A DNA stretch of 64,000 nucleotides from Chloroflexota bacterium (GTDB lineage: Bacteria > Chloroflexota > Dormibacteria > CF-121). Below, piece after piece: positions 10,099 to 10,352 of the stretch. The translations under genes and the position numbers were made by a program. The stretch covers positions 32,079-96,078 of the forward strand of contig JAXDLN010000036.1 in the NCBI GenBank assembly GCA_034666565.1, given 5' to 3'. The notes under the pieces are model-generated. The model saw only the letters and a list, made by a program, of their open reading frames with translations. It was not told where the DNA came from and did no database searches. Numbering within the stretch: position 1 is the stretch's first letter; each line of letters starts with the position of its first letter.

Positions 10099-10194
10099 TT
10101 GGGCTCGGTAATCAAGAAGCGCAGAAAGAAGATGCGCAAACACAAGCACAAGAAAATGCTGAAGGCGACCCGTTGGCAGCGGAGAACCAAGTAA
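10099..10194 (+). CDS. ribosomal micro-protein bS22-like (31 aa, TTG start)
   Basis: ttg-[30 protein letters not shown]-taa. From memory it closely matches the actinobacterial bS22 consensus [30 protein letters not shown]. The only in-frame start after the upstream TAA is TTG at 10099. Confidence 0.6.
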   Translation: [31 protein letters not shown]

Positions 10195-10247
10195 GGCCCG
10201 CCTTCCACTAGGGAAGAAGGATGCAGCGGCGCTTGGCCGGAGCGTAG

Positions 10248-10352
10248 CGGAGGCTCGGCTCTCGCCGACGCCGCGGCGAAGGGAGGAACCGTAGGTTCTT
10301 CCCTTCGGTCAAAATGCTCAAGGCGACGCGGTGGCAGCGGCGGACGAAGTAG
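10248..10352 (+). pseudogene. second bS22-like partial copy / remnant (no canonical start)
   Basis: In-frame ...[32 protein letters not shown]-tag. The last 42 nt differ from copy 1 at 7 positions, all synonymous. A TAG lies 2 codons upstream and there is no ATG/GTG/TTG before the internal ATG at 10314. It overlaps the 3' end of tlpA antisense. Confidence 0.3.

What the first reader, a model, noticed from the sequence alone, without database searches (positions are those of the whole stretch)
10099..10352. bS22-like ribosomal micro-protein gene plus a partial second copy conserved only at non-synonymous positions
Copy 1 (TTG start) encodes [31 protein letters not shown], very close to the actinobacterial bS22 that I recall from ribosome structures. 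About 120 nt downstream, the sequence aaaATGctc...tag repeats the last 42 nt of the gene with 7 substitutions, and all 7 are synonymous in the bS22 frame (ctg/ctc, acc/acg, cgt/cgg, aga/cgg, acc/acg, taa/tag). Similarity stops abruptly upstream of the ATG. The in-frame upstream stretch ([20 protein letters not shown]) is basic but has a TAG two codons before it and no canonical start. The segment is also antisense to the last 11 codons of tlpA. Purely synonymous divergence implies selection on the peptide. That points to a second functional bS22-like gene with an unorthodox start, a very recent gene-conversion tract, or a dual-coding constraint with tlpA. A 9-bp perfect inverted repeat (agggaagaa at 10210-10218 and ttcttccct at 10296-10304) brackets the inter-copy region and could form an RNA structure.
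Basis: seen in the sequence. Interest (0 to 1): 0.6.

Follow-up and report, generated by a model that had tools for sequence, protein, structure and literature searches.

The report
Relic bS22 tail beside mobile insert
The "second copy" is the original end of a tiny ribosomal-protein gene, pushed aside when a 158-base cassette with its own replacement end landed in the gene; it is a leftover and not a second gene, but the cassette is a small, conserved element that has not been described.

Summary
Copy 1 (10099-10194) is a genuine bS22 gene. A 42-nt repeat of its 3' end lies 158 nt downstream (10311-10352), and all 7 differences are synonymous.

The interpretation mostly fails. In about 45 related Candidatus Dormibacterota contigs, bS22 and a convergent redoxin gene abut or overlap tail to tail, mostly by 35 nt. 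There is no spacer and no second copy. Copy 2 is 39/39 identical to the functional bS22 tail of the closest relatives that lack the insert. The tail now attached to the gene differs from them at 7/39 sites.

So copy 2 is the native tail. It was displaced by a 158-nt insertion made of a replacement tail plus a 116-119-nt three-hairpin element, "E". It survives as the last 11 codons and stop of the redoxin gene.

The same cassette, with identical junctions, occurs in a second lineage (L063) whose close relative L075 lacks it. E also occurs at an M20-peptidase locus with a 3-nt TAA target duplication, and that site is empty in the window's own genome. A sister family is flanked by 31-120-nt gene-tail duplications at three other genes. 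E matches nothing in Rfam.

Synonymous-only divergence is expected, because all 42 related bS22 genes encode one identical protein.

The parts
10099..10194 (+). Functional bS22 gene. It is a chimera: native 5' part (10099-10155) plus a replacement tail.
   Evidence: NF047430 scores 55.4 bits against a cutoff of 34. The TTG start and the protein are identical in 42 related loci. The 5' part differs from the closest relatives at 1-3 of 57 sites.
10156..10194 (+). Tail 1: the replacement 3' end (codons 20-31 plus TAA). It has a different history from the rest of the gene and travels with element E.
   Evidence: It differs at 7/39 sites from the closest E-less relatives L077-L079, while head plus tail 2 differ at 1-3/96 (Fisher p = 0.0007-0.006). 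It differs by 1 nt from tail 1 of L063. The nearest of 31 distinct related tails is 4 differences away.
10195..10310 (+). Element E: a non-coding, three-hairpin element. P1 is 10202-10216, P2 is 10223-10277 and P3 is 10278-10306. A closing stem pairs 10195-10198 with 10307-10310. The 99-100-nt core (10208-10307) is bounded by imperfect terminal inverted repeats.
   Evidence: The fold is -69.6 kcal/mol, z = -4.05. The consensus structure has compensatory pairs. Related contigs lack E. The core is 96/99 identical to L063 and 93-94/99 identical to copies at another locus. There is no Rfam match.
10311..10313 (+). AAA. This may be the right-hand copy of a 3-nt target duplication (compare AAA at 10153-10155). 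L063 has AAG at both positions.
   Evidence: and 61/65: the two copies match within each genome and differ from the nearest empty alleles. A 3-nt TAA duplication flanks E at the M20 locus. This is weak evidence: one site in two genomes.
10314..10352 (+). It is a relic as far as bS22 is concerned.
   Evidence: It is 39/39 identical to the functional tail of L077, L078 and L079 and is contiguous with the same downstream sequence. It scores 17 bits against bS22. It has no start codon except the ATG that gives a 12-aa ORF, and no Shine-Dalgarno-like sequence within 10 nt.
10318..10896 (-). Redoxin / TlpA-ResA-like thiol-disulfide oxidoreductase. Its last 11 codons and TGA stop are encoded antisense to tail 2.
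   Evidence: Pfam Redoxin/AhpC-TSA match residues 47-174, and the ResA profile matches to residue 182 of 192. About 25 relatives show the same 35-nt overlap geometry with the intact bS22 gene.

Best explanation
The window comes from a Candidatus Dormibacterota genome. In this lineage the ancestral arrangement is a tail-to-tail overlap. The redoxin gene reads 35 nt into the 3' end of the convergent bS22 gene, and its TGA stop is formed by the bS22 codons CTC-AAG.

A 158-nt cassette was inserted exactly in front of bS22 codon 20. The cassette has two parts:
- a ready-made replacement bS22 tail (39 nt, same peptide, different codons, TAA stop);
- a 116-119-nt structured, non-coding element, E.

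bS22 is now completed by the incoming tail. The native tail (copy 2) was pushed 158 nt downstream. There it no longer belongs to any bS22 gene, but it still supplies the redoxin's C-terminal 11 codons and stop. The insertion therefore uncouples the two overlapping genes without damaging either.

Shown:
- Copy 2 is native and in place.
- Tail 1 plus E form an insertion/deletion polymorphism with identical junctions in two lineages.
- E is a discrete element also found at another locus, with an empty site in the window's own genome and a 3-nt target duplication.

Inferred:
- The cassette reaches new genomes as a unit, by horizontal transfer.
- It is placed by homology with its own bS22 tail. That could be homologous recombination on the left plus transposon-like joining of E's fixed right end. 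It could equally be spread of the whole composite allele by recombination through the ultra-conserved bS22 sequence on both sides.
- E probably acts at the RNA or single-stranded DNA level as a 3'-end hairpin module. It may insulate or terminate between convergent genes.
For: 1. Synteny and geometry. L001-L010 and L013-L048 share the gene order LeuRS-HIT-thiolase-bS22-redoxin-Lon-FtsH and carry one bS22 with no spacer. The redoxin stop lies 35 nt inside bS22 in about 25 loci. That is the same geometry as copy 2 and the redoxin in the window.

2. Polarity. Against the closest E-less relatives L077-L079, tail 2 differs at 0/39 sites, the head at 1-3/57 and tail 1 at 7/39 (Fisher p = 0.0007-0.006).

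3. A second lineage. L063 has the same tail 1 / E / tail 2 arrangement. Its close relative L075 lacks the cassette; the 300 nt downstream are 95% identical. L075's tail equals L063's tail 2 at 39/39 sites and differs from L063's tail 1 at 8/39. The window and L063 differ by 1 nt in tail 1 and are 95% identical in E, although their redoxin genes are only 69-77% identical. Five lineages closer to the window (85-89% identical) lack E.

4. No deletion footprints. No relative in the overlap group has the CTG codon that recombination between tail 1 and tail 2 would leave.

5. E is a discrete insert. At the M20 locus, L059 and L062 read ...TAA[117 nt]TAA.... The window's own genome (L080) reads ...gacTAAaactt... 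at the same place, with no insert.

6. E is structured. z = -4.05, with compensatory pairs.

7. Synonymous-only divergence is expected. There are 34 distinct DNA sequences and one protein.
Against: - No recombinase, transposase or reverse transcriptase lies in or next to the cassette (gene lists; Pfam). The insertion chemistry is unknown.
- No donor allele of the form bS22-TAA-E, without duplication, was found. The tail nearest to tail 1 is still 4 differences away.
- E's core is 98/99 identical between L059 and L062, whose flanking M20 sequence is only 71% identical. High identity of E between lineages may therefore reflect purifying selection and not recent transfer. That weakens one argument for mobility.
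- Only one copy of E lies in the 64-kb window.
- The two bS22 cases could descend from a single event spread by ordinary recombination.
- The proposed 3-nt AAR duplication rests on one polymorphic site in two genomes.
- E has no U-tract after any hairpin, so a terminator role is conjecture.
Confidence: 0.8

Rival explanations
1. The duplication arose in place. E transposed into bS22 with an unusually long, variable-length target-site duplication (42 nt here), as IS1634 and IS1549 do. Both tails were native and identical at birth, and tail 1 later drifted at synonymous sites.
For: - The sister family of E is flanked by direct repeats of 31, 66 and 120 nt of the upstream gene's end.
- In all five cases with a duplication, the right-hand copy starts 3-4 nt after hairpin P3.
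- Long variable direct repeats of 8-514 bp are documented for IS1549 and IS1634 (PMC2266710).
- The copies are 95-97% identical in L068 and L057.
- E has inverted-repeat ends and gives a 3-nt duplication elsewhere.
Against: - In both bS22 lineages, tail 2 is 39/39 identical to the nearest empty allele, while tail 1 differs at 7-8/39.
- The same derived codons (CTG, ACC, CGT, AGA, ACC, TAA) are shared by the window and L063. Independent duplications in place cannot produce that.
- A single old event would need many precise losses, or recombination that reset tail 2 but not tail 1.
- The left ends of the inserts are not uniform among loci.
Confidence: 0.12
2. Copy 2 belongs to a second, functional bS22-like gene that starts at a non-canonical codon upstream (LGSRRRR...), or it encodes a 12-aa peptide from the ATG at 10314.
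For: - The peptide frame of copy 2 is intact.
- The upstream in-frame stretch is basic.
- The same frame is open in L063.
Against: - About 45 relatives lack it, including the closest ones.
- The bS22 profile score is 17 bits against a cutoff of 34, over 13 residues only, and there is no Pfam hit.
- There is no start codon, and a TAG lies at 10245-10247.
- A 1-nt indel in E between the window and L063/L059/L062 shifts the upstream frame.
- The same E core occurs at the M20 locus with no bS22 tail after it.
- Copy 2 has had no substitutions on which selection could have acted.
Confidence: 0.02
3. Copy 2 is kept similar to copy 1 by gene conversion, or by dual-coding constraint from the redoxin tail.
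For: - Copy 2 really does encode the redoxin's last 11 codons and stop.
- The base before the ATG is the same in both copies within each genome: A/A in the window and G/G in L063.
Against: - The two copies differ at 7 sites, so they are not homogenised.
- Copy 2 matches the relatives' tails, not copy 1.
- The redoxin tail varies at most positions among relatives. The redoxin ends at +14 to 0, -8, -35 or -83 nt relative to the bS22 stop, and at +794 in L017. The Redoxin domain ends about 10-18 residues before the stop.
Confidence: 0.04
4. Assembly artefact: a chimeric join of two strains' bS22 alleles.
For: The window comes from a metagenome assembly, and the two tails resemble alleles of different lineages.
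Against: - The sequence is identical in an 866-kb JGI contig and in an independent Logan assembly.
- A diverged version with the same junctions occurs in another metagenome (L063).
- E is a real sequence found at other loci.
Confidence: 0.01

Closest known systems
e14 / phage 21 integration into E. coli icd, leaving the icdC pseudogene fragment
   Same: - The inserted element carries an alternative 3' end that completes the target gene.
- The native 3' end is displaced to the far side as a fragment.
- The two ends differ mostly at synonymous sites.
- Relatives without the element have the plain gene (PMC13626634).
   Different: - e14 is a roughly 15-kb prophage with its own integrase and a defined att site.
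- Here the whole insert is 158 nt, with no gene.
- The displaced fragment also doubles as the end of a convergent gene.
- No recombinase or core site was identified.
MITE / REP-like intergenic repeat elements
   Same: - Size of about 100-120 nt.
- Imperfect terminal inverted repeats (GAAGGGAAGAA / TTCTTCCCTTC).
- Strong hairpins.
- Position between convergent genes.
- A short (3-nt TAA) target duplication with an empty site at the M20 locus.
   Different: - Only one copy in 64 kb, and an empty second site in the same genome.
- The core is 98/99 conserved across lineages whose flanking sequence is only 71% identical. That suggests function and not junk.
- It carries, or is flanked by, 31-120 nt of the target gene's end.
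- No autonomous partner is known.
IS1634 / IS1549 (long, variable-length direct repeats)
   Same: Insertions flanked by direct repeats of very variable length: 3, 31, 42, 66 and 120 nt here, against 8-514 bp there (PMC2266710).
   Different: - Those are 1.5-2-kb insertion sequences with a transposase.
- Their repeats are copies of the target made at insertion. At the bS22 locus, one repeat copy is clearly not native.
bS22 (NCBIfam NF047430; Pfam COX24_C)
   Same: Copy 1 is a full-length member, identical in protein to all related Dormibacterota genes.
   Different: Copy 2 covers only profile positions 19-31 and fails the cutoff.

Membership tests
bS22 ribosomal protein (NF047430) - copy 1 | Full-length match to the 31-position profile above the curated cutoff, with a start codon and conservation in orthologous loci | tested here: met
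   55.4 bits against a cutoff of 34, positions 1-31. The TTG start and an identical protein occur in 42 loci.
bS22 ribosomal protein (NF047430) - copy 2 | Full-length match above the cutoff, a start codon and conservation in orthologous loci | tested here: not met
   17 bits, positions 19-31 only. No start codon gives more than 12 aa. About 45 relatives lack it.
Integrative element that replaces a gene's 3' end (e14/icd type) | A replacement tail next to the gene, a displaced native tail beyond the insert, and empty sites in relatives | tested here: met
   Tail 1 differs at 7/39 and tail 2 at 0/39 from the empty alleles in two lineages. Empty sites: L073-L079.
Integrative element that replaces a gene's 3' end (e14/icd type) | An element-encoded integrase and a defined att core | tested here: not met
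   The insert is 158 nt and has no ORF. The neighbours are thiolase, redoxin and Lon. The junctions of the five cases with duplications share no core.
MITE | Terminal inverted repeats and a short target-site duplication, with a matching empty site | tested here: met
   The inverted repeats are 11 bp in L059/L062 and 9 bp in the window. A TAA duplication and the empty site L080 are seen at the M20 locus.
MITE | Many copies per genome, and an autonomous element with the same ends | tested here: inconclusive
   There is one copy in the 64-kb window and none in about 300 kb of related loci. 16 metagenome contigs carry the 21-mer. Whole genomes could not be scanned, and no transposase was found nearby.
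IS1634/IS1549-type long target duplication | The flanking direct repeats are both copies of the native target | tested here: not met
   At the bS22 locus, tail 1 is not native (Fisher p = 0.0007-0.006). This could not be tested for L057, L061 and L068.
Intrinsic terminator | A G+C-rich hairpin followed by a U-tract | tested here: not met
   Hairpins are present, but the scan finds no terminator-like site within E on either strand. P3 is followed by ggtcaaaa.
Any Rfam 15 family | A covariance-model match | tested here: not met
   The only hit is ar7 at 19.5 bits against a gathering score of 60, E = 0.13. Nothing reaches the gathering threshold in 16 loci, and nothing reaches E <= 5 for a family-2 copy.
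Diversity-generating retroelement (TR/VR pair) | Mismatches confined to adenines of one copy, and a reverse transcriptase nearby | tested here: not met
   The differing bases are G, C, T, A, A, C, A in copy 1 and C, G, G, C, G, G, G in copy 2. No reverse transcriptase is among the neighbours.

The most novel reading that the evidence does not exclude
E and its sister family are an undescribed class of miniature, gene-less mobile elements in Dormibacterota and related soil bacteria. They settle at or inside the 3' ends of genes without harming them, because the mobile unit carries, or its insertion creates, a spare copy of the gene's tail. Placement is guided by homology between that tail and the target (a 'tail-swap' insertion). 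The strongly conserved hairpin core, GGAGGAACC-GUA-GGUUCUUCC, would then be either the recognition site of an unknown trans-acting enzyme or a selected 3'-UTR RNA module.
Probability: 0.3. Interest if true: 0.75.

Novelty: new variant of a known kind. Interest (0 to 1): 0.5.

Why it matters
For annotation: the second copy should not be called a gene. bS22 here is a chimera of a native head and an imported tail. Synonymous-only divergence between a gene and a nearby fragment is not in itself evidence that the fragment is under selection.

For biology: this locus shows how two essential-looking genes that overlap tail to tail can be pulled apart in one step by a 158-nt insert. It also exposes a conserved, uncatalogued structured element family at gene 3' ends in a poorly known, uncultured phylum.

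If the tail-carrying insertion is a general mechanism, it would be the smallest known version of the strategy used by e14 in icd, in which the element brings its own gene end. It would also be a new way for non-autonomous elements to target conserved genes.

Tried and rejected
- **Phage or plasmid origin of the insert.** blastn 'distant' gave only chance hits. Four viral-contig scans with junction, hairpin and family-2 patterns found nothing.
- **Left-junction pattern in metagenomes.** It found nothing. In hindsight this is because L063 reads GGCCCTTC where the window reads GGCCCGCC.
- **tRNA or tmRNA fragment.** None found.
- **Known RNA family.** None found.
- **Simple tandem duplication.** The spacer has no similarity to the flanking sequence, to the rest of the window or to related loci.
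- **DGR-type TR/VR pair.** The mismatch pattern is wrong and no reverse transcriptase is present.
- **Coding potential of E.** A small ORF (MQRRLAGA*) and the in-frame basic stretch are not conserved, because of an indel and loss of the stop.
- **Other copies of E in the window or in Dormibacterota loci.** None found.
- **Literature search for the hairpin sequence or for similar elements.** Nothing found.
- **Shared core sequence at the junctions of the five cases with duplications.** None seen.
- **Mobility genes near E in the longer contigs.** Only an M20 peptidase, an exosortase-like protein, a CBS protein and similar genes.

Full report
**Observation**

The ORF at 10099-10194 (+), with a TTG start, encodes [31 protein letters not shown]. 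It matches NCBIfam ribo_bS22 over its whole length at 55.4 bits (cutoff 34), and it matches Pfam COX24_C.

A 42-nt repeat lies 158 nt downstream: 10153-10194 versus 10311-10352. It has 7 mismatches. ATG..TAA (10156-10194) and ATG..TAG (10314-10352) both translate to [12 protein letters not shown], and all 7 differences are synonymous. Random substitutions would give that result with probability about 1e-5. No other repeat of this quality lies at offsets of 60-400 nt in the window.

The redoxin ORF at 10318-10896 (-) ends antisense to copy 2. The sequence is 100% identical in an 866-kb JGI contig and in a Logan assembly. It is therefore not an assembly accident.

**What relatives look like**

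I looked up the exact bS22 peptide and scanned species-representative genomes with the redoxin protein. Together these gave about 45 contigs, most of them titled Candidatus Dormibacterota (some as Chloroflexota, or mis-binned to other taxa). The L001-L010 loci show the gene order LeuRS-HIT-thiolase-bS22-redoxin-Lon-FtsH. Every one has a single bS22 gene, with no spacer and no second tail.

The convergent redoxin gene runs straight into bS22. Relative to the bS22 stop, its own stop lies at one of these positions:
- 0 to +14 nt in a distant group;
- -8 nt in a few loci;
- -35 nt in about 25 loci, including all the closer relatives;
- -83 nt where the Leu21 codon is TTG and the TCA stop is lost.

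The window's copy 2 and redoxin show exactly the -35 geometry. The window is therefore the ancestral overlap with 158 nt inserted.

The redoxin tail that overlaps bS22 changes wherever bS22 wobble bases change. It also lies beyond the Redoxin domain. It is a read-through extension, not a conserved part of the enzyme.

**Which copy is native**

A protein search with the redoxin, followed by contig look-ups, gave the closest relatives: L077, L078 and L079, at 91-92% redoxin identity. All three lack the insert. Their single bS22 tail is 39/39 identical to the window's copy 2 and continues into the same downstream sequence.

Against these three relatives:
- the 5' part of the window's gene differs at 1-3 of 57 sites;
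- copy 2 differs at 0 of 39 sites;
- the tail now attached to the gene (tail 1) differs at 7 of 39 sites (Fisher p = 0.0007-0.006).

So copy 2 is the unaltered native tail, and tail 1 came in with the insert.

Copy 2 has had no substitution on which selection could act. Also, all 42 related genes (34 distinct DNA sequences) encode one identical protein, so any two functional tails differ only synonymously, by 5.0 sites on average and 11 at most.

**A second, independent lineage**

A metagenome scan for a 21-mer from the spacer returned 16 contigs. One of them, L063, has the same arrangement with the same junctions. Compared with the window:
- its tail 1 differs by 1 nt;
- its E is 95% identical;
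- its redoxin is only 69-77% identical;
- redoxin plus Lon together are 78.6% identical.

Five lineages nearer to the window (85-89% identical) lack the insert.

L075 is a close relative of L063; the 300 nt downstream are 95% identical. L075 lacks the insert. Its tail equals L063's tail 2 at 39/39 sites and differs from L063's tail 1 at 8/39.

The unit 'tail 1 plus E' is therefore an insertion/deletion polymorphism in two separate lineages. In each, the downstream copy is the local native tail.

No relative carries the chimeric CTG-type tail that deletion by recombination between the repeats would leave. Gain is therefore more likely than repeated loss. Allelic replacement in either direction cannot be excluded.

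**The inserted element**

E (10195-10310) folds into three hairpins inside a closing stem, at -69.6 kcal/mol and z = -4.05:
- P1, 10202-10216;
- P2, 10223-10277;
- P3, 10278-10306.

An alignment of five copies keeps this structure, with a few compensatory pairs.

E is not coding. A 1-nt indel separates the window from L063, L059 and L062, and the small internal ORF is not conserved. It matches no Rfam family, no phage, plasmid or viral contig, and no paper in the library.

The same core is 99 nt long and bounded by GAAGGGAAGAA...TTCTTCCCTTC. It lies between an M20 peptidase gene and a convergent small gene in L059 and L060/L062, which are also Dormibacterota. At that locus the window's own genome (L080, on the same 866-kb contig) is empty. 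The two loci read as follows:
- L080: ...ccggacTAAaactt..., with the two stop codons overlapping;
- L059: ...ccggaaTAA[117 nt]TAAaactt....

That is a discrete insertion with a 3-nt target duplication.

The core is 98/99 identical between L059 and L062, although their flanking M20 sequence is only 71% identical and the 14-nt 'filler' next to the core has diverged. The core is therefore under strong constraint, or is kept uniform in some way. It is not a decaying repeat. This also means that the high identity of E between the window and L063 is not by itself proof of recent transfer.

**A sister family, and more tail duplications**

Eleven of the 16 contigs (eight distinct loci) carry a second family. 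It shares hairpin P3 and an AAGGGAGG motif. It also has a covarying 5' hairpin and a conserved block, CGTNTGAGTCCGTGATCCAGGCGTTGGGGAC. Every copy sits 5-30 nt after a stop codon, in the orientation of the upstream gene.

In three loci the element is flanked by direct repeats of the upstream gene's end:
- L057: 120 nt, 4 mismatches;
- L061: 31 nt, 5 mismatches;
- L068/L071: 66 nt, 3 mismatches.

As in the window and L063, the right-hand copy always begins 3-4 nt after the P3 stem. In L061 and L068 the right-hand copy is followed by what looks like the gene's original terminator hairpin. The bS22 arrangement is therefore one case of a recurrent pattern.

**Mechanism**

What is shown is an insertion with a fixed right end and a seamless, in-frame left junction. 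At bS22, the gene-proximal tail is not native.

I favour movement of a unit made of gene tail plus E, positioned by homology with the target gene. The match of the base before the ATG within each genome (A/A in the window, G/G in L063, each differing from the nearest empty allele) would fit a 3-nt duplication like the one at the M20 locus. But that is one site in two genomes.

The main rival is a long, variable target duplication of the IS1634/IS1549 kind (PMC2266710). It explains the variable repeat lengths. It does not explain why tail 1, and not tail 2, is foreign in both bS22 lineages.

No recombinase, transposase or reverse transcriptase was found near any copy. The function of E is inferred only from its position, orientation, structure and conservation. 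It has no U-tract and so is not a canonical terminator.

**Comparison with what is known**

The closest analogue is e14/phage 21 in E. coli icd. There the element supplies a new gene end, and the old end remains as the icdC fragment, differing mainly at synonymous sites (PMC13626634). The present case has the same logic at one hundredth of the size, with no integrase. It has the added twist that the displaced fragment is still used, on the other strand, by the neighbouring gene. In size, inverted-repeat ends, short duplication and location, E resembles a MITE or REP-like element. In its low copy number and strong conservation, it does not.

**Limits**

- No donor allele was found.
- Nothing here tests expression.

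Noticed in passing
L017 3528-4340 (Dormibacterota contig DATNMH010000037.1, labelled Acidoferrum): An independent insertion of about 790 nt lies at the same bS22/redoxin junction. 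It is flanked by a 17-nt imperfect direct repeat of the redoxin's 3' end (cgagcgtttgaactagg / cgagcttctgaacgagg). It gives the redoxin a new end (..KLVTVH*) and carries an ORF with no Pfam match. Next to the relic, the insert ends with a hairpin (gacccg..cgggtc) plus 3 nt.
   Followed up: partly
L001, L002, L006, L027, L032, L035 (bS22 at 3001-3096 in L001, L002 and L006): Where bS22 Leu21 is TTG and not CTC, the redoxin's TCA/TGA stop is lost. The redoxin ORF then reads 83 nt into bS22, covering nearly the whole gene antisense. In the three of these fetched with gene calls (L001, L002, L006) no redoxin gene was called.
   Followed up: partly
L057 9805-10135; L061 (31-nt copies starting 134 nt before and 8 nt after the 21-mer at 283-303, - strand); L071 5520-5795 (= L068): Family-2 elements are flanked by duplications of 120, 31 and 66 nt of the upstream gene's 3' end. 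The upstream genes are an exosortase-like protein, a 522-aa protein and a 117-aa protein. In L057 the duplicated segment also includes the GTAAG motif plus the hairpin that normally starts the element.
   Followed up: partly
L068/L071 versus L058/L069: Two related genomes share the same pair of genes: one ending ..FTQDFSDCA* and one beginning VIDQANRD... They carry the family-2 element in opposite orientations. In one it follows the first gene; in the other it follows the second gene with a tail duplication. This implies independent insertions.
   Followed up: no
L071 6170-6235: A mini variant of about 55 nt lies directly after a stop codon: GTTGGGGAGGTGGGGGACCGGG + GGAGGAACC-GTA-GGTTCCTCC. 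Here the P3 stem is perfect (CCTCC where other copies have CTTCC).
   Followed up: no
window 10059-10098 and the same position in L004, L013-L017, L019, L025, L045, L073-L078: The 40 nt upstream of the bS22 TTG start contain a block, (g/c)aatgttccggcacatgcgagct, that is nearly invariant across the closer relatives. It may be a promoter or 5'-UTR element.
   Followed up: no
window 10278-10306 (P3): The apex of P3 contains AACCGUAGG. From memory, this 9-mer also occurs in the 5' arm of helix 45 near the 3' end of 16S rRNA, and the stem pairs a GGAGG (Shine-Dalgarno-like) with a CUUCC/CCUCC stretch. This was not tested and may be coincidence.
   Followed up: no
window 8268-8543 (+): A 91-aa ORF begins MKRHRRKSGQALIEYAFLMILLATVAIAV. 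From memory this resembles the N-terminus of an Flp/Fap-type pilin. It has no Pfam hit. Homologous small ORFs are conserved in synteny in the relatives.
   Followed up: partly
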